The translations under genes and the position numbers were made by a program. Shown here one piece after another: positions 48,070 to 60,119 of a stretch of DNA of 64,000 bases. Origin of the DNA: an uncultured Thermoleophilia bacterium (GTDB lineage: Bacteria > Actinomycetota > Thermoleophilia > UBA2241); NCBI GenBank assembly GCA_963700035.1, contig CAVOWE010000018.1, positions 170,378-234,377 on the forward strand, given 5' to 3'. Positions within the stretch are counted from its first letter, which is position 1, and the number at the start of each line of letters is the position of its first letter. The notes below the pieces were generated by a model. The model was not told where the DNA came from. It searched no databases and worked only from the letters and a program-made list of their open reading frames with translations.

Positions 48070-48239
48070 GACGCGTCTTATGCGGACTGTGATCGCCGCC
48101 CGCCCGCGCTCCGGCATGGGAGAGATAAGACCGCAATGCAGGTTCTTCCCGCCGCCCACCGAGCTTCGTGCTATCGTCATATGCGGAAAGGGGCAGTCGA
48201 CATCTGGGTCTTACGCGGACTGCATAATCCTTGTTGGGT
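48070..48239 (+). promoter_or_regulatory. Candidate attI-like region: two direct repeats GTCTTATGCGGACTG (48074-48088) and GTCTTACGCGGACTG (48208-48222), followed by a GTTGGGT core-type site (48233-48239) immediately before the first cassette ORF
   Basis: Read from the sequence. The repeat pair is reminiscent of IntI-binding direct repeats and GTTRRRY is the integron core site, but no intI gene is adjacent. Confidence 0.35.
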
Positions 48240-48254
48240 GGACAGGAGGTAGAC

Positions 48255-48602
48255 ATGAAGCCCATCGCTCTGCTCCTCGCGGGGCTTGTCGCTGTCGTCC
48301 TTCTCGGAGCCTGCGGGGGCAACTCGCGCGACGTCGACTGGAGCGGCAGCTGGCGGGAGGTCGGTACCGCCGAGGCCTACATCCTCGAGCTCACGCCGCG
48401 GCTGCAGGGCGGCCGCTACACGGTCGAGTACCCGCGCTCGTTCAAGGTCCCGTTCAGTGCCCGAACCGAAGACGGCAAGTTTCTGATCATAGGCGAGAAC
48501 CGCGACGACATCGTCTGGACTCTCAGCTACGACCAGGGGTCCGATCAGCTGACCGCAGTCGGCGGGCTGGGCACCTTCCACTTCGAGCGCCTGCAGGAAT
48601 AG
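48255..48602 (+). CDS. Cassette 1: small lipoprotein
   Basis: MKPIALLLAGLVAVVLLGACGG (lipobox); perfect SD AGGAGG 8 nt upstream of the ATG. Confidence 0.7.
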   Translation: MKPIALLLAGLVAVVLLGACGGNSRDVDWSGSWREVGTAEAYILELTPRLQGGRYTVEYPRSFKVPFSARTEDGKFLIIGENRDDIVWTLSYDQGSDQLTAVGGLGTFHFERLQE

Positions 48603-48616
48603 GCGTTGGCGATGCC

Positions 48617-48706
48617 ACCCAACAAGCGCGTCAACCTGACGCGGTCAACGGTTTCTGTAGTAACTTGGAGCCGCAGCCCGCGCAGGTTACGCGCGGTGCG
48701 TTAGGC
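48617..48706 (+). repeat. attC 1 (ACCCAAC ... GTTAGGC)
   Basis: cccaacaagcgcgtcaacctgacgcgg...cgcgcaggttacgcgcggtgcGTTAGGC. Confidence 0.7.
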
Positions 48707-48751
48707 CGCACACACGCTTCACGGCCGCCGTCATTATCCTGGAGGAGCACC

Positions 48752-49093
48752 ATGGCCAAATACCTGATCTCTTTTCCAAGCGCGGCAATGGTTGTGCCCG
48801 ATAGCGAATGGGGAGCGGTAGGCCGCGACGCGCGCGCTGTGATTGATGAGGCGAAAGCCGCCGGTGTGTACGTCTTCGGCGGCGGAATCGACGAAGACGT
48901 ACCGCCCGTGCTCGTCTCGGCTGACGGCACGGTTGCAGTGGGTGGCTATCCTTGGGCGCCCACGCTCGACGGCGGCTTCACCGTGTTGGAACTGCCTTCG
49001 CGCGACGAGGCCATCGCGTGGGCGGCGCGTATCGCCAAGGCCTGTCGGTGCGACCAAGAACTGCGCGTCTTCGGGTTCGACCCACAATCCTAA
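48752..49093 (+). CDS. Cassette 2: YciI-like (Dabb/YCII superfamily) small protein
   Basis: MAKYLISFPSAAMVVPDSEWGAVGRDARAVIDEAKAAGVYVFGGGID...; SD GGAGGAG. Confidence 0.65.
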   Translation: MAKYLISFPSAAMVVPDSEWGAVGRDARAVIDEAKAAGVYVFGGGIDEDVPPVLVSADGTVAVGGYPWAPTLDGGFTVLELPSRDEAIAWAARIAKACRCDQELRVFGFDPQS

Positions 49094-49123
49094 GGGCGAC
49101 ACTGAAATGGCGCGGCAAGTGCG

Positions 49124-49193
49124 GCCTAACAATTCATTCAAGCCGAACCCGCTTCGCGGGTCGGCGTAATTCAGGCGTTAGCTTGAGTCTGTG
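49124..49193 (+). repeat. attC 2 (GCCTAAC ... GTTAGCT)
   Basis: gcctaacaattcattcaagccgaaccc...gggtcggcgtaattcaggcGTTAGCT. Confidence 0.6.
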
Positions 49194-49225
49194 ACCGCGA
49201 TCCGCTGAAAGGAGACTGATCTCTC

Positions 49226-49807
49226 ATGCGCAAGCTCATCGTCTGCAGCATAGTCTCCCTCGACGGGTTCTACTCTGGTGTGGGTGGGGACCTTTCGGCC
49301 ATGCCATTCGACGCCGGGTTCTCCGACTACAACTTGGAACGCCTGCGAGCAGCAGACACGCTGTTGCTCGGTCGTAGGACGTTCGAGGCATTCCGCGCCT
49401 ACTGGCCCGCGATCGCCGACGATGCGAGCCAGCCCGCAGTCGAGCGCGAGGTGTCACGCCTCAACACCGCTGCGGACAAGGTCGTGGTCTCTGACGGCCT
49501 GAAGCCTGACCAGCTCGAGGGCTGGGGCCCGGCCCGAGTCGTAAAGCGTGCGAACGCACACGCTGAGGTTGCCGCACTCAAGGAAGGACCCGGGCGAGAG
49601 ATCTTGGTCTTCGGCAGCCACGTCCTCTGGAACGATCTCCTCGCCGGCGGCCTGGTCGACGAGCTGCACCTCATGATCGGCGCCGGAATCATTGGCGACG
49701 GTGTCCGGGCATTTGAAGGTCGGCCGCCCGGTTCGCTCCGCCTGCTGGACGCGCGTGCGTTCGATGGGTCTAGCCTGGTGTTGGCGCGCTACTGTGTCGA
49801 AGGCTGA
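49226..49807 (+). CDS. Cassette 3: dihydrofolate-reductase-like (RibD C-terminal domain) protein
   Basis: MRKLIVCSIVSLDGFYSG...LLLGRRTFEAF...ILVFGSHVLWNDLLAGGLVDELHLMIGAGIIGDG. Confidence 0.7.
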   Translation: MRKLIVCSIVSLDGFYSGVGGDLSAMPFDAGFSDYNLERLRAADTLLLGRRTFEAFRAYWPAIADDASQPAVEREVSRLNTAADKVVVSDGLKPDQLEGWGPARVVKRANAHAEVAALKEGPGREILVFGSHVLWNDLLAGGLVDELHLMIGAGIIGDGVRAFEGRPPGSLRLLDARAFDGSSLVLARYCVEG

Positions 49808-49855
49808 TCAGCCGCGCACGACGAGGCGCGGACCTTCTCTTGCCGCCGGGGACCA

Positions 49856-49938
49856 AGCTAACAAACGCATCGAGCGGACGCCGCGAGCGCCCTCCTCATG
49901 CCAGCGCCGGAGCGCCGCTCATGCGCAACACGTTCGGC
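49856..49938 (+). repeat. attC 3 (AGCTAAC ... GTTCGGC)
   Basis: agctaacaaacgcatcgagcgg...gctcatgcgcaacacGTTCGGC. Confidence 0.6.
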
Positions 49939-49951
49939 AGAACGGAGCTAG

Positions 49952-50293
49952 ATGAAGCGACGCGGTCTTAGACTCCTGATCGCCCTCGGGGTCGGCGGGG
50001 GGCTCGTCGGCTTGGCGGCCGTGCTCGTCCGGGTCACCCGTCTCCACGACTTCTACGCCGCGTGTCTCGTGATCGGCCTGATCGCCATCGGCCTCGCGGT
50101 TGCGGCCCTGGTCTCTCCCAACGTGCTCATGCAACGCGCGACTGGAGACCCGTACTTCGGCGAGAGCTACACGCCCCCCGACGACGTCAGCTTCTCGGAG
50201 GCTGAGTATGGCTGGGTCGGCTGGTACTCCCTCTACCTGGTACTGGCGGCTGTGCCGTGCCTTCTCACGGCGCTGATCCACTACTGGACATAG
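49952..50293 (+). CDS. Cassette 4: small membrane protein (two or three TM helices)
   Basis: MKRRGLRLLIALGVGGGLVGLAAVLV...CLVIGLIAIGLAVAALV... Confidence 0.55.
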   Translation: MKRRGLRLLIALGVGGGLVGLAAVLVRVTRLHDFYAACLVIGLIAIGLAVAALVSPNVLMQRATGDPYFGESYTPPDDVSFSEAEYGWVGWYSLYLVLAAVPCLLTALIHYWT

Positions 50294-50311
50294 CGTCGGT
50301 ATGGCGGGTCT

Positions 50312-50401
50312 GCCGAACAAGCGCATCAAGCTGGCTCGCAGGCAGCTCTACGGTAGACTTCGTAGCGTGAGCACTCGCAGCTTATGCGCGGTGCGATGGG
50401 C
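50312..50401 (+). repeat. attC 4 (GCCGAAC ... GATGGGC)
   Basis: gccgaacaagcgcatcaagctggctcgc...cttatgcgcggtgcGATGGGC. Confidence 0.6.
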
Positions 50402-50503
50402 GAACCCTCGTCCCAGCGGGGTGTGATCGGAGGGTCCTCTTCACGGTCCTGTGCAGTGGTGCTATAGTCAGTACTGTTCACTGGGCTTCAGGCGGAGGTT
50501 CCA

Positions 50504-50779
50504 TTGCATAGCCCACCTAAGTTCTCACAGGACGTCGTGCCGCTCAGTGACCTCAAGGCCAACCCCGGTCGGGTCGTGCACCAGGTCGACGAGACCCATC
50601 GGCCGGTGCTCCTCACCAGCCGCGGTCGCGGCATCGCCGTCGTGCAGGCCCTCACGGAGTACGAGGCTGAGGCCGAGGAGCGTTCGTTCCTGCGCGCCGT
50701 GGTCGAGGGCATCTTCGACCTGGAGGCGGGGCGCGAGCTGGATCTCGCCGTCGTCAAGCAGCGGCTCGGCCTCGACTAG
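50504..50779 (+). CDS. phd: Cassette 5a: Phd/YefM-family antitoxin
   Basis: VVPLSDLKANPGRVVHQVDETHRPVLLTSRGRGIAVVQALTEYE; TTG start with GGAGGT SD. Confidence 0.75.
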   Translation: MHSPPKFSQDVVPLSDLKANPGRVVHQVDETHRPVLLTSRGRGIAVVQALTEYEAEAEERSFLRAVVEGIFDLEAGRELDLAVVKQRLGLD

Positions 50780-50780
50780 C

Positions 50781-51083
50781 GTGCCGGCGCGAGCGCGCAT
50801 CAGCTTCGCCGCCTCCGCCGTCGCGGACCTCGAGGCGATTCGCGCCTGGTACGCCGGCCAGCAGGCCCCCGAGGTGGGTGAGCGCCTGCTGCGCGAGCTC
50901 GTCTCGCACGTCGAGCAGCTCGCCGACTTCCCGGAGAGCGGCCGCATGGTGCCGGAGTTCGGGCTCGTCCAGCTGCGCGAGATCGTCCACCCGCCGTTCC
51001 GGATCGTCTATCGCCTCGCCGAGGACCGGATCCGTGTCGTCCGCGTCTGGCGCAGCGAACGATTGCTCGACCTGCCGACGTGA
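50781..51083 (+). CDS. parE: Cassette 5b: ParE/RelE-family toxin
   Basis: ISFAASAVADLEAIRAWYAGQ...FRIVYRLAEDRIRVVRVWRSERL; the GTG is 2 nt after the antitoxin stop. Confidence 0.75.
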   Translation: MPARARISFAASAVADLEAIRAWYAGQQAPEVGERLLRELVSHVEQLADFPESGRMVPEFGLVQLREIVHPPFRIVYRLAEDRIRVVRVWRSERLLDLPT

Positions 51084-51090
51084 GCGGGTC

Positions 51091-51177
51091 GCCCAACAAG
51101 CGCATCGAGCAGAACGCCAGAAGGTCCGCCGCACGGCGGCAGGTCAGCCGCGTCTGCTCATGCGCGGTGCGTTGGGC
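51091..51177 (+). repeat. attC 5 (GCCCAAC ... GTTGGGC)
   Basis: gcccaacaagcgcatcgagcagaacgccagaaggtcc...gtctgctcatgcgcggtgcGTTGGGC. Confidence 0.75.
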
Positions 51178-51199
51178 GGACGACAGGGCTGGGACATTG

Positions 51200-51613
51200 G
51201 TGATCGCTGGGCTGCTCTCACTACTACCGGCGTCGTTCCTGATCCTGTCCGGTGCACTCGGTGGAGAGTACTGGGGTGATATCTTCATGGTCTGGGGCGG
51301 GGTCTTCGCGCTGCTCTCCGTGCTGTTCGTCGTCCTGGGTGTCCGCAACACGAAAGGCGAAGGCAGGAGTCCCTCGTTCTGGTCCATCCTTCTGCCGCTT
51401 GCCGGCGCGTGGCTGGTCTCTGGTTTCGCACTGGCGGTGATCGACCTGACGCCGCTGTGTCTGGGCCAAGACAACGGCGACGGGCGAAACAGCCTTTCGA
51501 TATGCCTGTTGCTCACCGTTGTGTGGTTCGCATCGATGACCGTTCCCGTCGGTCTGATCTCAGTGGGGGTCTCGGCGCTGACGCCCAAGCTCATCTCTAG
51601 GCCGGGCGTCTGA
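51200..51613 (+). CDS. Cassette 6: membrane protein (four TM)
   Basis: VIAGLLSLLPASFLILSGALGGEYWGDIFMVWGGVFALLSVLFVVLGV...; start (TTG 51197 or GTG 51200) is uncertain. The longer track ORF starts inside attC 5. Confidence 0.5.
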   Translation: MIAGLLSLLPASFLILSGALGGEYWGDIFMVWGGVFALLSVLFVVLGVRNTKGEGRSPSFWSILLPLAGAWLVSGFALAVIDLTPLCLGQDNGDGRNSLSICLLLTVVWFASMTVPVGLISVGVSALTPKLISRPGV

Positions 51614-51647
51614 TGCGACGCTTGCACGGCGAACACTCATGACCGCC

Positions 51648-51732
51648 GCCCAACAAGGGCATCGAGCAGAACGCCAGAAGGTAGACTGACCTGAGAGGGC
51701 ATGCGCGTCTGCTCATGCCCAACACGTTAGGC
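51648..51732 (+). repeat. attC 6 (GCCCAAC ... GTTAGGC); near-identical to attC 11
   Basis: gcccaacaagggcatcgagcagaacgccagaaggtagactgacctgagagggcatgcgcgtctgctcatgcccaacacGTTAGGC. Confidence 0.75.
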
Positions 51733-51750
51733 CGAGCGTAGGGGGGTGCG

Positions 51751-52158
51751 GTGACAACCTACGTCATCGTTGCTGTCGTCAGTGGGATCCTGTTCGGGAT
51801 CCTGGACGCGCTCATCAACGCCAATCCCGTGGCTCAGCGGCTGTTCCAGGTCTACAAGCCGATCGCGCGCACTTCGCTCAATCCAGTGGCCGGCATCGCC
51901 ATCGACCTCGCGTTCGGTTTCGTGATGGCCGGCGCGTTCTTGCTGCTCTATGAGAGCCTTCCCGGCAGCAGCGGAGTGCTCAGGGGCGTGAGCTTCGCTC
52001 TGATCGTATGGTTCTTCCGAGTCGTCATGTCGGTGGCGTCGCAGTGGATGATCTTCCAGGTCCCCGCCCGAACGCTCTTGTACTCGCTCGCCGCCGGCCT
52101 GGCAGAGATGCTGGTGCTCGGCGTGCTGTACGGGCTGACCTTGAGCCCTTCAGGGTGA
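51751..52158 (+). CDS. Cassette 7: membrane protein (four TM)
   Basis: MTTYVIVAVVSGILFGILDALI...FALIVWFFRVVMSV... Confidence 0.6.
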   Translation: MTTYVIVAVVSGILFGILDALINANPVAQRLFQVYKPIARTSLNPVAGIAIDLAFGFVMAGAFLLLYESLPGSSGVLRGVSFALIVWFFRVVMSVASQWMIFQVPARTLLYSLAAGLAEMLVLGVLYGLTLSPSG

Positions 52159-52163
52159 TGCCG

Positions 52164-52249
52164 GCCTAACAAGCGCATGCAGCAGAACGCCGCGAGGTAG
52201 ACTGCGGAAGAGAGGCGCGCGGCGTCTGCTGATGCGCAACGCGTTCGGC
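52164..52249 (+). repeat. attC 7 (GCCTAAC ... GTTCGGC)
   Basis: gcctaacaagcgcatgcagcagaacgccgcgaggtagactg...gtctgctgatgcgcaacgcGTTCGGC. Confidence 0.7.
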
Positions 52250-52276
52250 AACACGCAGGATCTCGGTTTGGATCGC

Positions 52277-52705
52277 ATGGGGGGCCTCGAGCTGGCTCGG
52301 GTCATGACAAAACGCAACGTGGCCTTCGCTGTCATTGGGGCAGCCGCGCTGGTGCTCAAGGGATCCTACAGCGGCCCGCTGCAGGAGGTCGTTCACTCGT
52401 ACGGCGGCAACTTCTCGGTCTCTTTCGCGCTCTACTTCGCATGTGTCAACGCCACCCGCGACTACCGGCGCCCGCGTCTTGTTGCGTCGTTGATCACACT
52501 CGCGGCGGTCACATCTTTCGAGCTCACAAACGGGTTCGGCTTCATGGCGAACGTGTACGATCCGATTGATCTGGTCGCGAACGCCGCCGGAGTGGGGTTT
52601 GCGGTTCTGGTCGATCTGCTCTCCGGGCGGTTCATCAGGAGCAGACACGATGACTCGCCAGCGGTTACCGAACCAGCGCATCCAGCAGACGGCCAGGAGC
52701 GCTAG
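52277..52705 (+). CDS. Cassette 8: membrane protein; its 3' end runs into attC 8
   Basis: MGGLELARVMTKRNVAFAVIGAAALVL... Confidence 0.5.
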   Translation: MGGLELARVMTKRNVAFAVIGAAALVLKGSYSGPLQEVVHSYGGNFSVSFALYFACVNATRDYRRPRLVASLITLAAVTSFELTNGFGFMANVYDPIDLVANAAGVGFAVLVDLLSGRFIRSRHDDSPAVTEPAHPADGQER

Positions 52706-52751
52706 AGTGACGTAGGCGCCTCGGCCGCCGCTGATGCGCCCAACGTCAGAC
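52667..52751 (+). repeat. attC 8 (ACCGAAC ... GTCAGAC; degenerate core)
   Basis: accgaaccagcgcatccagcagacggccaggagcgctagagtgac...gccgctgatgcgcccaacGTCAGAC. Confidence 0.55.
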
Positions 52752-52767
52752 GGACGGGAACCGCTCG

Positions 52768-53307
52768 ATGAGCACCGACTATGTCGTCCGGCTGGCTGGC
52801 CCCGAGCACCTCGACCAGCTACCCGCCATAGAGCGCGCCGCAGCCACCCGGTTCGGCGATTCGCTGCCTCACTCCGTGCTTTCGCATGTCACTCCGGTAG
52901 ACACCCTTGAGGCGGCACAACTGGCTGGCCTGCTCTGGGTGGCGCTCGAACCGGCGGGCACCCCTGTCGGGTTCGCCGTCGCCAGCGTCCACGGGCGGCG
53001 CGTGCACCTCGACGAACTCGACGTGCTGCCCGAGCACGGCCGCAAGGGAGTGGGATCTGCTCTCGTCGAAGCTGTCGAGGACTACGCGCTGAACAGCGGC
53101 TGCATAGAGATCACGCTCACCACGTTCGGTGACGTCCCCTGGAATGCGCCGTTCTATGCGAGCGCCGGCTTCGAGGTCATTCCGGAGCAGGGACTTGACG
53201 CGGAGCTCCTTCGGAGGCTCTCAGATGAGACTGAGCTGGGGCTGGATCGTTCTAGACGGGTGGCGATGCGCAAGCCGCTGAGCCGTCTAACAAGCGCTTC
53301 AACCTGA
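52768..53307 (+). CDS. Cassette 9: GNAT-family N-acetyltransferase
   Basis: LDVLPEHGRKGVGSALVEAVEDYALNSGCIEITLTT (acetyl-CoA binding motif A). Confidence 0.75.
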   Translation: MSTDYVVRLAGPEHLDQLPAIERAAATRFGDSLPHSVLSHVTPVDTLEAAQLAGLLWVALEPAGTPVGFAVASVHGRRVHLDELDVLPEHGRKGVGSALVEAVEDYALNSGCIEITLTTFGDVPWNAPFYASAGFEVIPEQGLDAELLRRLSDETELGLDRSRRVAMRKPLSRLTSAST

Positions 53308-53371
53308 CGCGACGACTCCTCGGCTATCCTGAAAGCGCACGGCGCGCAGGTTAAGCGCATCAACGGTAGGT
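53285..53371 (+). repeat. attC 9 (GTCTAAC ... GGTAGGT; degenerate core)
   Basis: gtctaacaagcgcttcaacctgacgcg...cgcgcaggttaagcgcatcaacGGTAGGT. Confidence 0.55.
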
Positions 53372-53379
53372 TTGGTGGC

Positions 53380-53892
53380 ATGACTCGTCGAGGTCGTCGG
53401 ATCGCATATGTCATCGTCGCCTTCCTCGCCGTTGCGGCGAGCGGTCTGGCGTGTCTCGTCCTGCTCGGCAGGTGGCAGCCGGTGGAGTCCAGCGAAGCGG
53501 TACGGCTGGCCTCGCCGGACGCGCGCTGGGCGCTCACGGTGCGCGATGAGGTAGGCCCGCTCGCCTCGAACCCCGTCCATACGCGCGCCGTGCTCGCGCG
53601 AGCCGACGGCAGCGACGCGCGCACCGTCTACCTCGGCGAGTCCGCCGAGGCCAAGTGGAGCAGCCCGGCCAGCGTGCTCTTCGTCGAGACCGCCTCGGGC
53701 AGGCGCCACGTGGTCGCGGTCCCAGGGGGCTCCTACGACTACCGCTTCGATGAGCCCCGGAACCTCGCCGCGTTCGTCGCCTGGGTCGCGCTGCCTGGGG
53801 TCATGGTCGCACTGGTCGGAGTGCTGCTCATCCGGCGCAGGTCGCGGGTCGTGCGCGGCGCCGCCGGGAGCGAAGCCGGCGCGCTGCCGTAG
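53380..53892 (+). CDS. Cassette 10: membrane-anchored hypothetical protein
   Basis: MTRRGRRIAYVIVAFLAVAASGLACLVLLG...; C-terminal TM VAWVALPGVMVALVGVLLI. Confidence 0.5.
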   Translation: MTRRGRRIAYVIVAFLAVAASGLACLVLLGRWQPVESSEAVRLASPDARWALTVRDEVGPLASNPVHTRAVLARADGSDARTVYLGESAEAKWSSPASVLFVETASGRRHVVAVPGGSYDYRFDEPRNLAAFVAWVALPGVMVALVGVLLIRRRSRVVRGAAGSEAGALP

Positions 53893-53914
53893 GAACGGGC
53901 GCGGTGGCCGACAA

Positions 53915-53999: not shown

Positions 54000-54023
54000 C
54001 GACCACCACAGGAGGGCCGTCGG

Positions 54024-54524: not shown

Positions 54525-54527
54525 GCG

Positions 54528-54612: not shown

Positions 54613-54778
54613 ACACCTGGGAGGCGACGTGGCCATCGGTGTCGTTCTGGAGGTGTCCGGAGTCCTCCGCGTAGTGAAGCCGGACATCTCGAAGCGCTGG
54701 TTCTGCAAGCCCGCCGGCAGAGCTGAGCGCCCCTGGGCCCTGAGCATGACCTGCTCTGCATGCGAGTCCTGAGCTAGG

Positions 54779-55363
54779 ATGACGGCGATGAACTGTCCCT
54801 CGAACGGCCCCGTATTCCCGCGGCTCACCACGGCACGGCTCGTCCTGCGAGAGCTGACGCTCGAAGACGCGGGCTGGTACCTGTCGCACTTCTCGCGTCC
54901 GGAGATAATCAGTGGGCAGGGGTATCCGGCCCCCGACGGCCTCGAGGGGGCGCGCGAAGAGCTGCAGCGCTTCGTCGTGGACCTCGCCGCGCAGGGGACG
55001 GGCGGGCGCTGGGGCATCGCCCTGAAGGACCATGAAGCCCTGGTCGGCAGCGCCGGCTTCTACGACTGGGACCACAAGGCCCGCTCGGCCGAGATCGGCT
55101 ACGACCTCGCCTCCGAGCACTGGGGCAAAGGCCTCATGAGCGAGGCCCTGACGGCGATCCTCGATCACTGCTTCGAACACCTCGACCTGAATCGTCTGCA
55201 GGCGCTCGTTTTGCCGCGCAACGAACGCTCGCAGCAGCTGCTGACCGGGCTCGGCTTCAACCGCGAGGGTCTCCTGCGTCAGCACGGGGTCGACGAGAAG
55301 GGACGCCTCTGCGACGACCTGGTCTTCGCCCTGCTGCGGAGCGAGCGGAGAGCGACGACCTGA
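54779..55363 (+). CDS. Cassette 12: GNAT acetyltransferase (RimJ/RimL-like)
   Basis: RLVLRELTLEDAGWYLSHFS...GYDLASEHWGKGLMSEALTAILDHCFEHLDLNRLQALVLPRNERSQQLLTGLGF. Confidence 0.8.
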   Translation: MTAMNCPSNGPVFPRLTTARLVLRELTLEDAGWYLSHFSRPEIISGQGYPAPDGLEGAREELQRFVVDLAAQGTGGRWGIALKDHEALVGSAGFYDWDHKARSAEIGYDLASEHWGKGLMSEALTAILDHCFEHLDLNRLQALVLPRNERSQQLLTGLGFNREGLLRQHGVDEKGRLCDDLVFALLRSERRATT

Positions 55364-55498
55364 CGGCCGCGCCACGGTGGCCGCCAGGATGTGGCAGTCG
55401 CAGGCGGATGTGTCGCTACACCTCGGGTCAACACACCCCAGGCAGTGTCTTCATCCTCGCCGGGACTGTGCTCGTGCATGGTAAGCGGTGAGCGAGCG

Positions 55499-55583
55499 GG
55501 CTAACAAAGGCATCAACCTGACGGCCAGAAGGTAGACTGACCAGAAGGCGCCTGCGCCGCAGGTCATGCCTAAGACGTTAGCT
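55499..55583 (+). repeat. attC 12 (GGCTAAC ... GTTAGCT)
   Basis: ggctaacaaaggcatcaacctgacggccagaaggtagactgacc...caggtcatgcctaagacGTTAGCT. Confidence 0.65.
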
Positions 55584-55637
55584 GCACAGGGCCACCCGTC
55601 GCTCCAGACCACCGTCTCCCCCGATCGTCACCCACTC

Positions 55638-55666
55638 TTGACGTATAACGCGACGCGTTATAGATT
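55638..55666 (+). promoter_or_regulatory. higBA promoter/operator: -35 TTGACG, 17-nt spacer formed by the perfect palindrome TATAACGCG-A-CGCGTTATA, -10 TAGATT
   Basis: Read directly; 7 nt upstream of the higB ATG. Confidence 0.55.
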
Positions 55667-55672
55667 GGCCAT

Positions 55673-55954
55673 ATGATCAAGTCGTTCCGAGACGCCGAGA
55701 CGGCCAGGGTCTTCGACCGTAGGTTCTCCCGGCGCTTGCCGGGCGACATCCAGTCAGTCGCGCTGCGCAAGCTGCGCATGCTGAACAACGCTGTCGACGT
55801 GAGCGACCTGCGTAGCCCGCCGGCGAACCGGCTGGAGAAGCTGTCCGGCGACCGCCGGGGCCAGCACAGCGTGCGCATCAACGATCAGTGGCGCATCTGT
55901 TTCGTCTGGCGCGCCGGCGATGCCTACGACGTCGAGATCTGCGACTACCACTGA
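55673..55954 (+). CDS. higB: Cassette 13a: HigB toxin (RelE/ParE superfamily)
   Basis: MIKSFRDAETARVFDRRFSRRLPGDIQSVALRKLRMLNNAVDVSDLRSPPANRLEKLSGDRRGQHSVRINDQWRICFVW. Confidence 0.8.
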   Translation: MIKSFRDAETARVFDRRFSRRLPGDIQSVALRKLRMLNNAVDVSDLRSPPANRLEKLSGDRRGQHSVRINDQWRICFVWRAGDAYDVEICDYH

Positions 55955-55963
55955 AGGCGAGGT

Positions 55964-56275
55964 GTGACGATGACCGAAGAGAGACTGCCGCCGGTCCACC
56001 CGGGCGAGGTGCTGCTTGAGGAGTTCCTCAAGCCGATGGGCCTCAGCCAGAACCGGCTGGGACTGAACATCGGCGTGCACCCGCGCCGCATCAACGAGAT
56101 CGTCCTGCACAAGCGCCGCGTGACTGCTGAGACTGCCCTGCGCCTGGCGCGCTACTTCGGCACTTCGCCGCAGTTCTGGCTCGGTCTCCAGTCGGACTAC
56201 GACCTCGACGTTGCCGCCGACGCGCTTGGCGAACGACTTGAGCGCGAGGTCCAGGTGCGGGCCAAAGCCAGCTAG
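55964..56275 (+). CDS. higA: Cassette 13b: HigA antitoxin (XRE-type HTH)
   Basis: VHPGEVLLEEFLKPMGLSQNRLGLNIGVHPRRINEIVLHKRRVTAETALRLARYFGTSPQFWLGLQSDYDL. Confidence 0.8.
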   Translation: MTMTEERLPPVHPGEVLLEEFLKPMGLSQNRLGLNIGVHPRRINEIVLHKRRVTAETALRLARYFGTSPQFWLGLQSDYDLDVAADALGERLEREVQVRAKAS

Positions 56276-56285
56276 CCGTGGTGGC

Positions 56286-56372
56286 AGCTAACAAGGCGTT
56301 CGAGCTGACTCGCAGAGGCTCAGCGCAAGGATGGGGCCTGAGCGCTCGCAGCTCAGCGCCCCGACGTTGGGC
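56286..56372 (+). repeat. attC 13 (AGCTAAC ... GTTGGGC)
   Basis: agctaacaaggcgttcgagctgactcgc...gctcgcagctcagcgccccgacGTTGGGC. Confidence 0.65.
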
Positions 56373-56426
56373 AGTTGCAGCGGAGCCGCATCTGTGGTCG
56401 GGGCGCGAGGAAGCTCGGGAGTCTGC

Positions 56427-56861
56427 ATGACGGTGACGGTTCGGCGGGGCCGAGAGGCGGACGCCGCGGCGCTCAAGGCGCTGGACACCATCGCGCCGGT
56501 CGACCCGCAGAGGGCCGTCTCGATCGACGGCTGGCTGGTGCAAGACGTGGTCTTCGTCGCTGTCGCCGACGATCAGCCCGTCGGCTACGCGGTCTTCAAC
56601 CATGACTTCTTCCGCCAGGGCAACGTCGCCATGCTCATGCTTGCCGTCGACTGGCGCGGCCGCGACATCGGTGAGCAGCTGCTGCAGGCTCTCGAGGACG
56701 CCTGCGATACGCCGAAGCTGTTCTGCACCACCAACGTCTCCAACCATCGCATGCAGCGCCTGCTCGCGCGTCGCGGCTTCCTCGCCTGCGGCTTCATCGA
56801 CGAGCTCGATCCCGGCGATCCCGAGCTGGTCTACGTCAAGAAGCTGGGGGAGAAGCGGTGA
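56427..56861 (+). CDS. Cassette 14: GNAT acetyltransferase
   Basis: MTVTVRRGREADAAALKALD...MLAVDWRGRDIGEQLLQALEDACDTPKLFCTTNVSNHRMQRLLARRGF. Confidence 0.75.
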   Translation: MTVTVRRGREADAAALKALDTIAPVDPQRAVSIDGWLVQDVVFVAVADDQPVGYAVFNHDFFRQGNVAMLMLAVDWRGRDIGEQLLQALEDACDTPKLFCTTNVSNHRMQRLLARRGFLACGFIDELDPGDPELVYVKKLGEKR

Positions 56862-56871
56862 TGTGCGCACT

Positions 56872-56961
56872 GCCCAACAAGCGGATCAAGCTGACTCGCC
56901 GCGGCGCCGGCGGCCTCACGAGAGGCCGGCGCGCTCGCAGCTTGTCCGCGGTGCGTTGGGC
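56872..56961 (+). repeat. attC 14 (GCCCAAC ... GTTGGGC)
   Basis: gcccaacaagcggatcaagctgactcgcc...gctcgcagcttgtccgcggtgcGTTGGGC. Confidence 0.7.
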
Positions 56962-56988
56962 GGAACGAGGCGATTCCGGGGGAGCTGC

Positions 56989-57606
56989 ATGCGGTCGGAC
57001 GGCCCACTGAACTCTCAAGAGAGCTTCCATCCGGTCACTGCGGAGCGATTGGGCGACTTGGATCGCTTCTCGAGGCAACATGGCAAGTTCCGGTACTGCT
57101 CGTGTATGCGATGGCGGCTGCCAAGCTCCGAGTTCCAGCGGTGCACGAAGGAACAGCGTGCGTCGCGGCTCGAGCAGCTCGTCGTCTCGGGCATCCCGGT
57201 CGGTGTGCTTGCCTACGTCGGCGGCGAGCCCGTCGGCTGGTGCTCGGTGGGACCGCGTGAGAGCTTCGCGGGTCTCGAACGCTCGCGTACGCTGTCGCGG
57301 ATCGATGACACGGCCGTGTGGTCGGTCACTTGCTTCTTCGTCGATGCGCAGCAGCGCCGTCGCGGGCTGCAGTCCAGACTCCTCGATGCCGCGATCGGGT
57401 ACGCCCGCGCGCAGGGCGCGGGCGTGATCGAGGCCTACCCCGTGGACCCATGTTCCCGCTCCTACCGGTTCATGGGCTTCCCGGGCCTGTTCGAGCGTGC
57501 GGGATTCGTTGACGTGACACCGCCCGGCCGCGCGAGGAACGTCATGCGCCTGGTGCTTGGAGCGTCCGAACAAGCGCATCGAGCAGAACGCCAGAAGGTA
57601 GACTGA
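56989..57606 (+). CDS. Cassette 15: GNAT-like acetyltransferase; its 3' end runs into attC 15
   Basis: MRSDGPLNSQESFHPVTAERLGDLDRFSRQHGKF...CFFVDAQQRRRGLQSRLLDAAIGYARAQGAGVIEAYPVD. Confidence 0.6.
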   Translation: MRSDGPLNSQESFHPVTAERLGDLDRFSRQHGKFRYCSCMRWRLPSSEFQRCTKEQRASRLEQLVVSGIPVGVLAYVGGEPVGWCSVGPRESFAGLERSRTLSRIDDTAVWSVTCFFVDAQQRRRGLQSRLLDAAIGYARAQGAGVIEAYPVDPCSRSYRFMGFPGLFERAGFVDVTPPGRARNVMRLVLGASEQAHRAERQKVD

Positions 57607-57649
57607 CCTGAGAGCGCATCGGCGTCTGCTCGTGCGCGGTGCGTTGGAC
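57565..57649 (+). repeat. attC 15 (TCCGAAC ... GTTGGAC)
   Basis: tccgaacaagcgcatcgagcagaacgccagaaggtagactgacctgagagcgcatcggcgtctgctcgtgcgcggtgcGTTGGAC. Confidence 0.75.
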
Positions 57650-57862
57650 GAGACCCGGCGCCGCCGCCTGGCTGGGCTTGAGTTCCGTAGCGCCTGTCTG
57701 GGACGATCAGGGCGACGGCAGGGTCTCGGGGGGATCCATGGAGGAATCGTCGACGATGTACGCTGTCGTTGCCGACGTGCGCGGCGAGGTCTTGCGCGAA
57801 GTGATGAAGGACTCCCGATAGCGGGGCGGGCGATGCGGGCTGGGCGAACAGCAGAGGGCATG

Positions 57863-59347
57863 GGTACGCGTCCGACGGTGATCCTGCGTGCTTGCCCCTC
57901 GTACGACGTCGCCAGAGTCAGGGCCATCGTCCGCGAGGGCCTCGAGGAGTTGGGGCTTCGCCCGCACGGCAGGACCCTGGTGAAGCCGAATCTCGTCTCC
58001 AGCGGCGCGCTGTTCGCCAACGCGTACACCCGCTCGGAGTTCATGGAGGGCGTCCTGCTGGCTCTCCGCGACCGTGACCATGGACGGATGACTGAACTGG
58101 CCGTGGGCGAGCGGAGCGGTATCACAATCCCGACGCGTTACGCCTACGCCAAGGCGGACTACAACCCGGTGCTCCGCAGAACCGGCGCGAAGCGCTACTG
58201 CTTCGAGGAAGAGCGCCAGGTGGAGGTCCCGCTGCGCCACGCAGACCGGCTGCGCGACTCGGTCTTCGTCCCACAGTCTGTGACCAGCACCGACTTCTTC
58301 GTCAACTGCCCGAAGTTCAAGGGGCATCCGTGGACGACGGTCACCTTCTCGATGAAGAACTTCATCGGCATCCAGGACGACCGTCACCGCATGATCGACC
58401 ATCATCACCGCTTGAACGCCAAGGTCGTGGACCTCCAGCACGTGATCCAGCCGGACTTCATCGCCCTCGACGGCATTGTCGCCGGGCAGGGCGCCATGCT
58501 CACGCCCATCCCCTTCGACCTGCAGCTCGTCGTGATGGGCGACAACCAGGTCGCGCTCGACGCGGTGTGCTGCACGATCATCAGGGTCGATCCGGGCACA
58601 GTGGAGCACATCCGGTCGGCGCACGAGCACGGTCTGGGTCCGATCGACCTGGCGGGGATCGACATCACCGGCGACGTGGACCTCGCCGAGGCGCGTCGCC
58701 GCGCGCGCGGGTTCAAGGTCGGTCTCGCCAGGGTCGAGGAGTACTTCGAGGGGACCACGATCTCGTGCTATGCCGGACCGCCGACGGAGGATGGGGTCCC
58801 GGACTACTGCTGGGGAGGCTGTCCGGGGGCGCTGATCGAAGCGATCCAGGTCCTGAGGCGGTTCGACTCGCAGACCGACCGGAAGATGCCGAGGATCCAT
58901 CTGGTGTTCGGGGCTTATGCGGGCAAGATCCCGGCCAAATCGGGCGAGCGGGTCATCTTCGTGGGCGACTGCGCGACCTGGAAGGGCGAGGTCGCGGGTC
59001 GCGAGGTGTCGATCGAGAGGCTGCCACTGTCCCCGACTCTCACCGATCCCCATCACGCCCGTCACGACGACATCTACGCGAAGATGGCGAAGGTGACGTG
59101 GCGCCTGATGAGGGCAAGGGGAGAGAACCACCTGCGGCTTCGCGGTTGCCCGATCAGCGTTGCCGAGATGGTGCTCGTGTTGTCCCACGTGAGCGGAGCG
59201 AAGAACCCGTACTTCGACCCGCGCATCGTGCTGGACTTCAACCGAGGGTATCTGGCATGGCGTCTCGCCGCGCTGCGGCGCGGCAGGTACCAGGAGCCAC
59301 CCGGCCGTGCAGAGGCATGGCACGCCGCGCCCCACGGCCGGCCGTAG
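57863..59347 (+). CDS. Cassette 16a: DUF362-domain protein (uncharacterised, often Fe-S associated)
   Basis: RPTVILRACPSYDVARVRAIVREGLEELGLRPHGRTLVKPNLVSSG...FIALDGIVAGQG...; start at ATG 57833 or 57863. Confidence 0.6.
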   Translation, partial: GTRPTVILRACPSYDVARVRAIVREGLEELGLRPHGRTLVKPNLVSSGALFANAYTRSEFMEGVLLALRDRDHGRMTELAVGERSGITIPTRYAYAKADYNPVLRRTGAKRYCFEEERQVEVPLRHADRLRDSVFVPQSVTSTDFFVNCPKFKGHPWTTVTFSMKNFIGIQDDRHRMIDHHHRLNAKVVDLQHVIQPDFIALDGIVAGQGAMLTPIPFDLQLVVMGDNQVALDAVCCTIIRVDPGTVEHIRSAHEHGLGPIDLAGIDITGDVDLAEARRRARGFKVGLARVEEYFEGTTISCYAGPPTEDGVPDYCWGGCPGALIEAIQVLRRFDSQTDRKMPRIHLVFGAYAGKIPAKSGERVIFVGDCATWKGEVAGREVSIERLPLSPTLTDPHHARHDDIYAKMAKVTWRLMRARGENHLRLRGCPISVAEMVLVLSHVSGAKNPYFDPRIVLDFNRGYLAWRLAALRRGRYQEPPGRAEAWHAAPHGRP

Positions 59348-59559
59348 CGTATGTGCGCACCACCATGCTCGGCACGCACGCGCTCAGCGGCAGCAGCCCC
59401 TGCGTTCGCAGTCCGCCGGCAGCCTCCAGCGCGCTGTGCACCGACCGCATATCACCATCGTCCGCCTCGGTCGGTGACGCCTTGCGCAAGAGGACGCAGG
59501 CTCCTTCGCGTCTGGCGGAGTCTGAGTACTTCTTGTTGGACACACCTCGAGGGGAGTCA

Positions 59560-60024
59560 TTGACCGAGATCGTCCAGGCGACGTCGCGCTCCGACGTGGA
59601 TGCGGCCCGGCGGCTGTTCGCAGAGTACGCTGCCTCACTCGACATCGACCTCAGCTTCCAAGACTTCGCATCTGAACTCGAGGGGCTCCCCGGCGAGTAT
59701 GTACCGCCCTCGGGCGCCCTGCTCCTCGCCATGGAGGGCGAGGAAGCCGTGGGCTGCGTGGCATTGCGCCCGTTCGAGGCTCTCATCGTCGCTGAGATCA
59801 AGCGCCTCTACGTCGTTCCCGCCGCACGCAATCGGGGTCACGGCATCCTCCTTGCCGAGGCGGCGATCGATGCGGCCCGCGCGGCGGGGTACGCCCTCGT
59901 CCGCCTCGACACCCTGTCATCGATGCAAGCCGCACAGCGCCTGTATGAAGGTCTCGGCTTCAGCGACATCGATGCGTATCGGCACAACCCGCACGAGGTG
60001 CGCTATCTTGAGCTGATGCTGTGA
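59560..60024 (+). CDS. Cassette 16b: GNAT acetyltransferase
   Basis: LTEIVQATSRSDVDAARRLFAEYAASLDIDLSFQDFASELEGLPGEYVPPSGALLLA...RNRGHGILLAEAAIDAARAAGYALVRLDT; TTG start with GAGGGGAG SD. Confidence 0.7.
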   Translation: MTEIVQATSRSDVDAARRLFAEYAASLDIDLSFQDFASELEGLPGEYVPPSGALLLAMEGEEAVGCVALRPFEALIVAEIKRLYVVPAARNRGHGILLAEAAIDAARAAGYALVRLDTLSSMQAAQRLYEGLGFSDIDAYRHNPHEVRYLELML

Positions 60025-60028
60025 GGCG

Positions 60029-60119
60029 GTCCAACAAGCGCATCAACCTTACGCGCTCACGCGCTGCGTCACACTCGACGCGCAGCTCGCGCAGGCCATG
60101 CACCAGACACTGGATGGGA
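60029..60119 (+). repeat. attC 16 (GTCCAAC ... GATGGGA; last recognisable attC)
   Basis: gtccaacaagcgcatcaaccttacgcgctcacgcg...cgcgcaggccatgcaccagacactgGATGGGA. Confidence 0.55.

What the first reader, a model, noticed from the sequence alone, without database searches (positions are those of the whole stretch)
48070..60119. Sedentary integron-type cassette array (16 attC sites, about 17 cassettes) in a high-GC chromosome, with no integrase in view
From just downstream of pntB to about 60.1 kb, almost every small plus-strand ORF is followed by an 85-90 bp imperfect palindrome. It begins with an inverse-core-like RYYYAAC (mostly GCCCAAC/GCCTAAC followed by AAGCGCATC) and ends with a core-like GTTRRRY (GTTGGGC/GTTAGGC). 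This is the attC (59-base element) architecture. The cargo is classic for chromosomal super-integrons: two toxin-antitoxin pairs, six GNAT acetyltransferases, a DHFR-like gene, and small membrane or lipoproteins of unknown function. Several cassette ORFs start or stop inside the attC. The array is flanked by ordinary core genes (pntAA-pntAB-pntB upstream; nitroreductase, cupin, tal, pgi downstream), so it is chromosomal. No tyrosine-recombinase ORF is present on either strand within about 16 kb of either end of the array, so this is either a CALIN (cassettes lacking integrase) or the intI has been lost or is encoded elsewhere. Integrons and CALINs are best known from Proteobacteria; an array in a roughly 70% GC genome with this gene complement is worth characterising.
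Basis: partly seen in the sequence, partly recalled or inferred. Interest (0 to 1): 0.85.

Follow-up and report, generated by a model that had tools for sequence, protein, structure and literature searches.

The report
Integrase-less integron array in an actinobacterium
This is a real integron gene-cassette array (16 recombination sites) on the chromosome of a Thermoleophilia actinobacterium that has lost its integrase by deletion; it matters because its relatives keep a complete integron at the same spot, in a phylum where integrons are reported as almost absent.

Summary
Sixteen plus-strand attC sites (48617-60119) separate 16 cassettes. The repeats fold into the attC layout: a 7-bp R box, a spacer, and an L stem with two bulged bases 6 bp apart. 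The stem shows strong compensatory changes. Each cassette's inverse core matches the core of the preceding attC, not its own (59/64 vs 36/64 positions; 0 of 100,000 permutations), which marks insertion at G|TT. The host is a Thermoleophilia (Actinomycetota). In related MAGs and metagenome contigs the same attC type follows a true integron integrase (TIGR02249, 467 bits). That gene lies just downstream of pntB, on the same strand as the cassettes. In this window the attI region survives (crossover G at 48233), along with the last ~16 codons of intI (48024-48073). The rest of intI is deleted. The element is therefore a decayed sedentary chromosomal integron, operationally a CALIN. attC 2 is 56/60 identical to the attC of the clinical aadA11 cassette, and its cassette is 91% identical in a Proteobacteria MAG. 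The kind of element is known; the host lineage is unusual. Whether an integrase elsewhere in the genome still acts on the array could not be tested.

The parts
46475..47944 (+). pntB, the conserved left boundary of the integron locus
   Evidence: Pfam PNTB 595 bits. 90-92% nt identity with Thermoleophilia MAG loci L001/L002 up to 47944-47952.
48024..48073 (+). Remnant of the 3' end of intI (last ~16 codons plus the TGA stop)
   Evidence: The frame reads ...RAGQSARSPIDAP*, against IntI C-termini ...RGGQGVRSPLDAL* in relatives. Local alignment to the L088 intI 3' end scores 45, against shuffles of 23.4 +/- 2.7 (max 32). tblastn with the full IntI finds nothing else in the window.
48108..48239 (+). 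attI region. The crossover is G|TT at 48233, and GTTGGGT (48233-48239) matches the R'' of cassette 1. It contains an extended -10-like TGCTATCGT at 48169-48177, a candidate Pc.
   Evidence: Alignment A2 with the intI-to-first-cassette spacers of 8 IntI-bearing loci shows invariant CTGC..AA.....GTT.G. The promoter is an inference only: the sigma-70 scan found none.
48234..48700 (+). Cassette 1: lipoprotein-like ORF 48257-48602; attC1 48617-48706
48701..49177 (+). Cassette 2: YciI-family ORF 48752-49093; attC2 49124-49183 (60 bp, aadA/aadB type)
   Evidence: attC2 is 56/60 identical to the aadA11 attC. ORF plus attC is 91% nt identical in a Proteobacteria MAG. Weak Pfam YCII hit; named YciI by sources.
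49178..49932 (+). Cassette 3: RibD_C (DHFR-like) ORF 49226-49807; attC3 49856-49938
49933..50395 (+). Cassette 4: small hydrophobic (predicted membrane) ORF 49952-50293, no family hit; attC4 50312-50401 (R' GATGGGC)
50396..51171 (+). Cassette 5: own promoter-like site 50440-50468; Phd/YefM antitoxin 50504-50779; adjacent putative toxin ORF 50782-51083; attC5 51091-51177
   Evidence: Pfam. Promoter scan. The toxin family is unconfirmed.
51172..51726 (+). Cassette 6: hydrophobic (predicted membrane) ORF 51200-51613, no family hit; attC6 51648-51732
51727..52243 (+). Cassette 7: DUF6789 ORF 51751-52158; attC7 52164-52249
52244..52745 (+). Cassette 8: hydrophobic (predicted membrane) ORF 52277-52705, whose stop lies inside its attC; attC8 52667-52751 (R' GTCAGAC)
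52746..53365 (+). Cassette 9: GNAT 52768-53307, whose stop lies inside its attC; attC9 53285-53371
   Evidence: A homologous cassette sits at a different array position in L003.
53366..53993 (+). Cassette 10: ORF of unknown family 53380-53892; attC10 53915-53999
53994..54606 (+). Cassette 11: DUF7000 ORF 53994-54524; attC11 54528-54612
54607..55577 (+). Cassette 12: GNAT (Acetyltransf_3) 54779-55363; attC12 55499-55583
55578..56366 (+). Cassette 13: own promoter-like site 55638-55666; HigB 55673-55954; HigA 55964-56275; attC13 56286-56372
   Evidence: An identical HigB lies in two other metagenome contigs: L162 has attC-model hits on both sides of the cassette, L161 only upstream.
56367..56955 (+). 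Cassette 14: GNAT, ORF listed from 56331 (an internal ATG near 56428 is the more likely start) to 56861; attC14 56872-56961
56956..57643 (+). Cassette 15: GNAT 56989-57606, whose stop lies inside its attC; attC15 57565-57649
57644..60113 (+). Cassette 16 (2.47 kb, two genes): DUF362 57860-59347 and GNAT 59560-60024; attC16 60029-60119 with a degenerate 3' arm. An internal GTTGGAC at 59537 also matches R''(16), so this may be two fused units.
60098..61340 (+). Two trailing accessory genes without an attC: GNAT 60098-60604 and nitroreductase 60612-61340. They are part of the variable region, not core.
   Evidence: Pfam. No homologue in the loci of relatives.
61426..61785 (+). Cupin gene, the conserved right boundary of the locus (followed by tal)
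   Evidence: Found at 77-87% aa identity in L001, L002, L006, L007, L008, L012 and L013. It lies directly next to pntB in L009, L010, L011 and L014.

Best explanation
Region 47945-61425 is the remains of a sedentary chromosomal integron in a Thermoleophilia (Actinomycetota) genome. It lies between pntB and a cupin gene.

In the ancestor of a subclade, an integron platform settled at this site. Its order is intI, then attI, then cassettes, all on one strand (the 'inverted integrase' layout). IntI then inserted circular cassettes one at a time. It did so by recombining the folded bottom strand of each attC with attI at the G|TT of the core site. That mechanism explains why every cassette here starts with the TTRRRY that pairs with its own inverse core.

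In the branch leading to this genome, a deletion removed all of intI except its last ~16 codons. What remains is attI, 16 cassettes and two trailing genes. By IntegronFinder's definition this is a CALIN. The array is now frozen unless an integrase is supplied from elsewhere.

Expression probably comes from read-through of the pnt operon or from an extended -10-like box in attI. The two toxin-antitoxin cassettes carry their own promoters and probably stabilise the array. Most attCs are a lineage-specific 85-90-bp type. attC 2 is a foreign, aadA/aadB-type site, which shows that cassettes were exchanged with Proteobacteria.

Shown: the anatomy, the boundary rule, homology to IntI-linked arrays, and the intI remnant. 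Inferred: recombination activity, promoter use, and the stabilising role of the toxin-antitoxin cassettes.
For: - **attC fold.** Bottom-strand DNA folds give a 7-bp R box, an asymmetric spacer, and an L stem with two single-base bulges. The bulged bases are top-strand C (13/15) and A (14/15), 6 bp apart. By my reading of the aligned sequence, the aadA11 attC has the same layout.
- **Covariation.** 89% of cells are paired, 14/23 pairs show double changes, and 0/500 shuffles reach the score. Slid controls give 24-37% paired.
- **Boundary rule.** R''(n) matches the reverse complement of R'(n-1) at 59/64 variable positions, against 36/64 for its own R'. The permutation mean is 38.6 +/- 3.3, with 0/100,000 reaching the observed value. 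The first cassette matches GTTGGGT at 48233.
- **Host.** The PntB best hits are Thermoleophilia MAGs, with 80-92% nt synteny on both flanks.
- **Relatives.** The attC model gives 44 hits (E<1e-3), all in 7 Thermoleophilia loci, all on the + strand downstream of pntB, and none below E=0.049 in the other 73 loci (nearly all Gammaproteobacteria).
- **Integrase.** L005 11775-12740 scores 467 bits on TIGR02249 (cutoff 265). It matches VchIntIA (2A3V) at E=2e-93 and is 54% identical to IntI1.
- **Linkage.** In 80 metagenome loci found with that IntI, the model gives 76 hits in 35 loci. All are on the intI strand and 75 lie downstream of intI. pntB lies just upstream of intI in 10 loci.
- **Platform in the window.** attI homology and the intI 3' remnant.
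- **Decay in close relatives.** L001 has an internally deleted intI and L002 has no integron.
- **Reciprocal test.** The model built only from this window ranks the dfrB1 and aadA11 attCs as the top two hits in a clinical class 1 integron.
- **Promoters.** Promoter-like sites occur only upstream of the two toxin-antitoxin cassettes.
Against: - No intact integrase is present in the 64-kb window, so activity cannot be claimed.
- The reference attC model of IntegronFinder could not be run.
- attC 16 has a degenerate 3' arm, and attCs 4, 8 and 9 have imperfect cores.
- No sigma-70-type promoter was found in the attI region.
- The array has 16 cassettes and a mean attC pairwise identity of 56%. From memory, that is smaller and less uniform than classic superintegrons.
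- Host assignment rests on MAG labels and synteny, not on an isolate.
Confidence: 0.9

Rival explanations
1. The array is not a fossil. A second, intact integron integrase elsewhere in the same genome still excises and inserts these cassettes in trans, so the locus is functionally a live integron.
For: attI and most attCs are structurally intact. Cassette order differs between relatives, which shows shuffling in the lineage. The IntegronFinder 2.0 paper reports that 22% of IntI-encoding genomes have more than one IntI (PMC9024848).
Against: No IntI-like sequence occurs in 64 kb. In this sub-branch intI is decaying: L001 is internally deleted and L002 lacks the integron. The rest of the genome was not available.
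Confidence: 0.15
2. The element is a recently acquired mobile integron or cassette island, for example carried by a transposon or plasmid from Proteobacteria, rather than a vertically inherited chromosomal integron of the lineage.
For: Array GC is 4 points below the flanks. attC 2 and its cassette are shared with Proteobacteria and clinical class 1 cassettes. Some relatives (L002, L012) lack the integron.
Against: The same insertion site, pntB|intI-attI-cassettes, occurs in relatives spanning 78-95% PntB identity and in 10 independent metagenome contigs. The 85-90-bp attC type scores above 60 bits only in loci whose IntI is at least 71% identical to L005. No transposase or conjugation gene is seen in or beside the array.
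Confidence: 0.05
3. The repeats are a REP/MITE-like family of structured intergenic repeats, or terminators, unrelated to integron recombination.
For: They are GC-rich imperfect palindromes placed after ORFs.
Against: There are no copies elsewhere in the window. All are on one strand. The inverse-core/core register shifts by exactly one cassette. They are linked to IntI genes in 35 independent loci. One copy is 93% identical to a textbook attC. None matches an Rfam family.
Confidence: 0.01
4. Assembly or binning artefact: a proteobacterial integron fragment was joined to actinobacterial core genes.
For: The sequence probably comes from a metagenome assembly, since its nearest relatives are all MAGs. 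Integrons are reported as nearly absent from Actinomycetota (PMC9024848, PMC13323075).
Against: Both junctions are reproduced in independent assemblies from different studies, including contigs of 124-437 kb (L003, L005, L013, L016). The attI and the intI remnant are collinear with those relatives.
Confidence: 0.02

Closest known systems
Sedentary chromosomal integrons of Xanthomonas (ilvD-linked) and Vibrio (superintegron)
   Same: A fixed chromosomal site shared by related species, lineage-typical attC sites, cassettes mostly of unknown function plus toxin-antitoxin cassettes with their own promoters, and variable cassette content between relatives. From memory of Gillings et al. 2005 (not checked here), Xanthomonas shows frequent decay of intI in some lineages.
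   Different: The host is a Gram-positive high-GC class (Thermoleophilia). intI lies on the same strand as the cassettes. This copy has lost intI. The array is modest (16 cassettes) and its attCs fall into several subtypes (mean pairwise identity 56%).
CALIN (cluster of attC sites lacking an integron integrase; Cury et al. 2016, PMC4889954)
   Same: At least two attC sites with no intact intI nearby. The operational definition is met.
   Different: Here the origin can be traced: attI and a 50-bp intI remnant are still present, and relatives hold the complete element at the same site.
'Inverted integron-integrase' integrons (for example Treponema spp.; PMC4889954)
   Same: In the relatives, intI is on the same strand as the attC sites and cassettes. 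All 76 attC hits are on the intI strand and 75 lie downstream of intI.
   Different: A different host phylum. The IntI is 54% identical to IntI1. Its place in the IntI tree was not determined.
Class 1 integron cassettes with 'Xanthomonadales-like' attCs (aadA11, aadA1, aadB; Ghaly et al. 2021, PMC8352920)
   Same: attC 2 is 56/60 identical to the aadA11 attC and 82-91% identical to aadA1/aadB attCs in 3764 plasmids. By my reading of the aligned sequence it has the same two-bulge geometry.
   Different: The cargo is a YciI-family protein, not a resistance gene. The other 15 attCs are 83-91 bp and of a different, lineage-specific type.

Membership tests
Integron attC sites / cassette array | Inverse core RYYYAAC at the 5' end and core GTTRRRY at the 3' end of each site | tested here: met
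   All 16 sites carry an inverse core, 15 ending in AAC and one (attC 10) in AGC. 12 have GTTNNNN cores. Sites 4, 8, 9 and 16 have one or two substitutions in the core.
Integron attC sites / cassette array | Imperfect palindrome conserved in structure rather than sequence | tested here: met
   89% of cells paired, 14/23 pairs with compensatory double changes, 0/500 shuffles reach the covariation score, and slid controls give 24-37% paired. Mean pairwise sequence identity is only 56%.
Integron attC sites / cassette array | Two extrahelical bases on the bottom strand (G nearest the R box, T further in) that set strand choice | tested here: met
   In-silico folds bulge G and T on the bottom strand. 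The top-strand equivalents are C in 13/15 and A in 14/15 sites, separated by a 6-bp stem. By my reading of the aligned sequence, the aadA11 attC has the same spacing. Actual extrusion and IntI contacts are not testable here.
Integron attC sites / cassette array | Cassette boundary at G|TT: the TTRRRY at the start of a cassette pairs with that cassette's own inverse core | tested here: met
   59/64 variable positions match the preceding R', against 36/64 for the site's own R'. 0 of 100,000 permutations reach 59.
Integron attC sites / cassette array | Score above threshold with the IntegronFinder or HattCI attC model | not testable with these tools
   The model is not available and Rfam has no matching family. 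As a surrogate, a model built only from these repeats ranks the dfrB1 and aadA11 attCs first and second in a clinical class 1 integron.
Integron attC sites / cassette array | Physical association with an integron integrase | tested here: met
   Met in relatives: L005 has an intact IntI and L016 a frameshifted one, and 35 metagenome loci have attC-model hits on the IntI strand, 75 of 76 downstream of intI. In the window only a remnant is left.
Complete integron | Intact intI (a tyrosine recombinase with the IntI-specific additional domain) next to the array | tested here: not met
   tblastn with IntI_L005 gives no hit in the window (best E=1.3). Only the last ~16 codons survive, at 48024-48073.
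Complete integron | attI site at the head of the array | tested here: met
   Window 48108-48243 aligns with the intI-to-first-cassette spacers of 8 IntI-bearing loci, with invariant CTGC..AA.....GTT.G. The crossover G is at 48233.
Complete integron | Pc promoter driving the cassettes | tested here: inconclusive
   There is no sigma-70 consensus site and no terminator between pntB and cassette 1. By my reading, TGnTAnnnT-like boxes lie upstream of the crossover in most aligned relatives, at differing distances; the window's is at 48169-48177. Its function is not shown.
CALIN | Two or more attC sites with no integron integrase nearby | tested here: met
   16 attCs and no intact intI in 48 kb upstream or 3.9 kb downstream.
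Sedentary chromosomal integron | The same chromosomal locus in related species (vertical inheritance) | tested here: met
   pntB|integron|cupin is found in L001, L007, L008 and L013, and pntB|integron in L003, L005 and L016 (whose loci end before the right boundary) and in 10 metagenome loci. pntB is directly next to cupin in the more distant L009, L010, L011 and L014.
Sedentary chromosomal integron | Large array with highly homogeneous attC sites | tested here: inconclusive
   There are 16 cassettes. attC pairwise identity ranges from 38% to 96% with a mean of 56%. Several subtypes and one foreign type are present.
REP / MITE repeats | Copies dispersed through the genome on both strands, not tied to a single array | tested here: not met
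   There is no significant copy outside 48.6-60.1 kb in the 64-kb window, and all copies are on the + strand.

The most novel reading that the evidence does not exclude
A subclade of Thermoleophilia carries a vertically inherited, still largely intact sedentary chromosomal integron at the pntB locus. It has its own IntI clade and its own 85-90-bp attC type. This would be the first lineage-wide integron described in Actinomycetota. It would also be a Gram-positive reservoir that exchanges cassettes, including ones with aadA/aadB-type attCs, with Proteobacteria and the clinical class 1 cassette pool.
Probability: 0.55. Interest if true: 0.72.

Novelty: new member of a known kind. Interest (0 to 1): 0.6.

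Why it matters
Surveys of complete genomes report no complete integron in Actinobacteria (PMC4889954, PMC9024848). A 2026 permafrost study notes their 'virtual absence' in Actinomycetota (PMC13323075). Cury et al. proposed that an unknown mechanism hinders integron establishment in such lineages.

Here an actinobacterial class holds an integron at one conserved chromosomal site. The loci sampled show several stages: empty site, intact, frameshifted, internally deleted, and integrase-less. This gives a natural series for asking two questions: what allows an integron to persist in a high-GC Gram-positive host, and how arrays decay into CALINs.

A cassette sequence is also shared across phyla. 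Cassette 2 has an attC 93% identical to that of aadA11. Its ORF plus attC is 91% identical in a Proteobacteria MAG. So attC types attributed to Xanthomonadales also circulate in Actinomycetota, which bears on tracing the sources of resistance cassettes.

The mechanism itself is not new.

Tried and rejected
- **Rfam.** The gathering scan of the window found only tRNA-Leu, with no attC family.
- **REP/MITE reading.** Rejected.
- **Second attI-like site.** I looked for one before the GTTGGAC at 59537. The local alignment to the window attI scored 19, against shuffles of 14.9 +/- 2.5 (max 33), so it is not significant.
- **Promoter in attI.** The sigma-70 promoter and terminator scan of the pntB-cassette 1 spacer found nothing.
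- **ParE assignment.** ORF 50782-51083 had no hit in Pfam even at E<=5, none in PDB and none in PADLOC.
- **Defence systems.** A PADLOC scan of nine cassette proteins gave no hits.
- **Source contig.** I tried to recover the window's source contig to search for a second intI. The look-up showed that a 0.2-1 Mb contig exists but returned only two short contigs.
- **Weak model hits.** Hits at 13816-13891(-) and 15066-15143(-), with E of 0.02-0.04, lie inside a kinase gene and are taken as chance.
- **Literature.** Six searches found no description of integrons in Thermoleophilia chromosomes. The library is incomplete, so this is not proof of absence.

Full report

Yes. Repeat finding and direct reading show 16 plus-strand elements between 48617 and 60119. 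Each follows a plus-strand ORF, begins with an RYYYAAC-like 7-mer and ends with a GTTRRRY-like 7-mer. Fifteen are 83-91 bp and one (49124-49183) is 60 bp.

A covariance model (R1) built from the 15 long copies scores them at 60-89 bits. It gives the short copy 18.5 bits. It finds nothing significant in the remaining 52 kb of the window on either strand. The family is therefore confined to this array.

The stated cargo is correct:
- six GNAT acetyltransferases
- a RibD_C (DHFR-like) protein
- a weak YCII-like match
- Phd/YefM
- HigB and HigA
- DUF6789, DUF7000 and DUF362 proteins
- several small hydrophobic (predicted membrane) or lipoprotein-like ORFs

The ORF beside Phd/YefM could not be assigned to ParE by Pfam, PDB or PADLOC. 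Array GC is 0.659 against about 0.70 in the flanks.

**2. Are the repeats attC sites?**

Five independent lines say so.

(a) Fold. As single-stranded DNA, the bottom strands form a 7-bp R box, an asymmetric unpaired spacer, and a long L stem interrupted by two single-base bulges. In the alignment the bulged positions are top-strand C (13/15) and A (14/15). These correspond to bottom-strand G and T, and they are separated by a 6-bp stem. By my reading of the aligned sequence, the textbook aadA11 attC has the same layout.

(b) Covariation. For the 23-pair structure, 89% of cells pair and 14 pairs carry changes on both sides. None of 500 shuffles reaches the covariation score. Sliding the partner by 1-3 columns drops pairing to 24-37%.

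(c) Cassette boundaries. IntI cuts between G and TT of the core. The TTRRRY that ends one attC therefore belongs to the next cassette, and it should pair with that next cassette's inverse core. This is what is seen. R''(n) matches the reverse complement of R'(n-1) at 59 of 64 variable positions, against 36 of 64 for its own R'. A permutation test gives 38.6 +/- 3.3, and 0 of 100,000 permutations reach 59. This explains why the R-box helix looks 'mismatched' within each site (78% paired). It is very hard to reconcile with any non-integron origin.

(d) A textbook attC. Site 2 is 56/60 identical to the attC of aadA11 on an IncC plasmid. It is 82-91% identical to aadA1 and aadB attCs in 3764 plasmids. 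Ghaly et al. call this the 'Xanthomonadales-like' type (PMC8352920).

(e) Reciprocity. R1 was built only from the long window repeats. When run on that clinical class 1 integron, its top two hits are the dfrB1 and aadA11 attCs, both on the correct strand.

**3. Host and genomic context**

PntB's best matches (76-95% identity) are MAGs labelled Thermoleophilia or Actinomycetota. The next tier consists almost entirely of Gammaproteobacteria at 70% or below. Both flanks of the array are collinear at 77-92% nucleotide identity with those Thermoleophilia loci.

The conserved boundaries are pntB (ending at 47944) and a cupin gene (starting at 61426), followed by tal. In four more distant Thermoleophilia loci (L009, L010, L011, L014), pntB is directly followed by cupin. 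This is plausibly the ancestral empty site.

The last GNAT (60098-60604) and the nitroreductase (60612-61340) have no counterpart in relatives. They belong to the variable region.

**4. Where is the integrase?**

R1 finds 44 hits (E<1e-3) in the 80 PntB loci. All are in seven Thermoleophilia loci, all on the plus strand, and all downstream of pntB. The other 73 loci, nearly all Gammaproteobacteria, have nothing below E=0.049.

In L005 a 321-aa ORF lies between pntB and the first attC, on the same strand. It is an integron integrase by several measures:
- TIGR02249: 467 bits against a cutoff of 265
- a full-length match to VchIntIA, PDB 2A3V, at E=2e-93
- 54% identity to IntI1

By my reading of the alignment, L005 retains W219, H240 and H241. 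From memory, these contact the extrahelical bases in 2A3V. It also retains the residues I take to be the catalytic set.

L016 has the same gene with one frameshift. The closest relative, L001, has an internally deleted copy. L002 and L012 have no integron.

A metagenome scan with IntI_L005 returned 80 loci at 64-97% identity. In 35 of them R1 finds 76 attCs. All are on the intI strand and 75 lie downstream of intI. pntB lies just upstream of intI in 10 loci. More than 7,900 database proteins match this IntI at E<=1e-40. JGI annotates many of the 120 best as 'integron integrase', and NCBI labels one as from an Aeromicrobium MAG.

The family is therefore abundant and auto-annotated. I found no paper describing it in Thermoleophilia.

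**5. What is left in this window**

tblastn with the full IntI finds nothing (best E=1.3). But 48024-48073 aligns with the 3' end of intI in four relatives. The best score is 45, against shuffles of 23.4 +/- 2.7. The frame reads ...RAGQSARSPIDAP*, against ...RGGQGVRSPLDAL* in relatives.

Downstream, 48108-48243 aligns with the intI-to-first-cassette spacers of eight IntI-bearing loci. The alignment has an invariant CTGC..AA.....GTT.G. The GTTGGGT at 48233 pairs with the inverse core of cassette 1.

So a deletion removed roughly 900 bp of intI (an estimate from the 963-bp intact gene) and left attI and the array in place. Operationally the element is a CALIN. Historically it is a decayed sedentary chromosomal integron.

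**6. How it works (shown and inferred)**

Shown:
- the anatomy
- the G|TT boundary rule
- homology with IntI-linked arrays
- shuffled cassette order between relatives: the GNAT-9 and DUF7000 homologues are in the opposite order in L003
- HigB is identical in two other contigs: L162 has R1 attC hits on both sides of the cassette, L161 only upstream

Inferred:
- Cassettes were captured by IntI-mediated attI x attC (bottom-strand) recombination.
- The array is now static unless IntI is supplied in trans.
- Transcription enters from the pnt operon, since no terminator-like site follows pntB. It may also start at an extended -10-like TGCTATCGT box (48169-48177), which by my reading has TGnTAnnnT-like counterparts, at differing distances, in most aligned relatives.

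The only sigma-70-like promoters in the array lie immediately upstream of the two toxin-antitoxin cassettes. This fits the known habit of toxin-antitoxin cassettes to be self-expressed and to stabilise arrays (established knowledge, not tested here).

**7. Cross-phylum cassette**

Cassette 2 encodes a 113-aa YciI-family protein. It has more than 6,000 homologues. Sources name homologues at 86-91% identity as coming from Proteobacteria, Noviherbaspirillum, Delongbacteria and Geothrix.

Its ORF plus attC (window 48738-49182) is 91% nucleotide-identical over 445 bp in a Proteobacteria MAG. There it is a lone cassette, with no other attC-model hit in the 12-kb locus and an rve-family integrase gene about 1 kb upstream.

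Together with the aadA11-like attC, this shows cassette exchange between this actinobacterial integron and the proteobacterial and clinical cassette pool.

**8. Novelty and score**

The kind of element is well known: integron, CALIN, inverted-integrase layout. The host lineage is what is unusual.
- IntegronFinder 1 and 2 found no complete integron in Actinobacteria (PMC4889954 and PMC9024848).
- A 2026 study stresses their near absence in Actinomycetota (PMC13323075).
- A 2021 review lists Actinobacteriota among phyla with detections, without detail (PMC8618304).

I file it as a new member of a known kind, with interest 0.6. The window itself holds only the integrase-less remnant. The wider interest comes from the family it reveals in relatives and from the aadA-type cassette link.

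**Limits**

The IntegronFinder model could not be run. The rest of the genome could not be searched for a second intI. Host assignment relies on MAG labels and synteny.

Noticed in passing
window 48701-49183; L165 5987-6430; L163 1210-1269: Cassette 2 (YciI-family ORF plus a 60-bp attC) is 91% nt identical over 445 bp in a Proteobacteria MAG (GCA_016713725.1). There it is a lone cassette, with an rve-family integrase gene about 1 kb upstream. Its attC is 56/60 identical to the aadA11 attC of clinical class 1 integrons. One database homologue (P0125) carries a DfrB (PF06442) domain, which hints at a neighbouring dfrB cassette in some integron sequences.
   Followed up: partly
window 13255-15219 (+) and 10124-13270 (+): A 654-aa Ser/Thr protein kinase is fused to a TIR domain. 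Its kinase part matches PADLOC PD-T4-6 models at up to 317 bits. It lies directly downstream of a 1048-aa protein with three FHA domains and an ABC ATPase. This could be a defence or signalling module, unrelated to the integron.
   Followed up: partly
window 59537-59543: A core-like GTTGGAC lies inside cassette 16, between DUF362 and the GNAT. It matches the inverse core of attC16 as well as R'(15) does. Cassette 16 may be two units, with the first having lost its attC. Similarity of the upstream 30 bp to attI was not significant.
   Followed up: partly
L090, L095-L100, L001 (about 11985-12500), L016 (about 13000-13240): just after the intI stop: In many relatives a two-gene module sits immediately downstream of intI, preceded by a conserved AGAAAGGTATAGTTTATG. 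The first product contains FEFDERKSR.NKLKHGIDF, which looks BrnT/BrnA-like from memory. In L016 a remnant lies between intI and attI. It may stabilise the integron platform. The family was not verified.
   Followed up: no
L161 1231-1501: A 98%-identical copy of the GNAT-12 and HigBA cassettes in another metagenome diverges exactly after the higA stop. It continues into a third ORF with no attC-model hit in between. This is a variant three-gene cassette or a rearrangement.
   Followed up: partly
L148 4681-4737: This is the only one of 76 attC-model hits that lies upstream of intI (about 260 bp before its start, same strand).
   Followed up: no
L036 5186-5305: A MAG contig labelled Dichelobacter nodosus carries a 40-aa fragment that is 75% identical to the C-terminus of the Thermoleophilia IntI, near its pntB.
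   Followed up: no
L002 11467-12052; L012 11482-11992: In relatives without the integron, the pntB-cupin gap is not empty. Each holds a different single small ORF, so the site is a general hotspot for accessory genes.
   Followed up: partly
window 5276-8218 (+): Adjacent LuxE-like acyl-protein synthetase and LuxC-like acyl-CoA reductase genes (Pfam hits of 30 and 94 bits).
   Followed up: no
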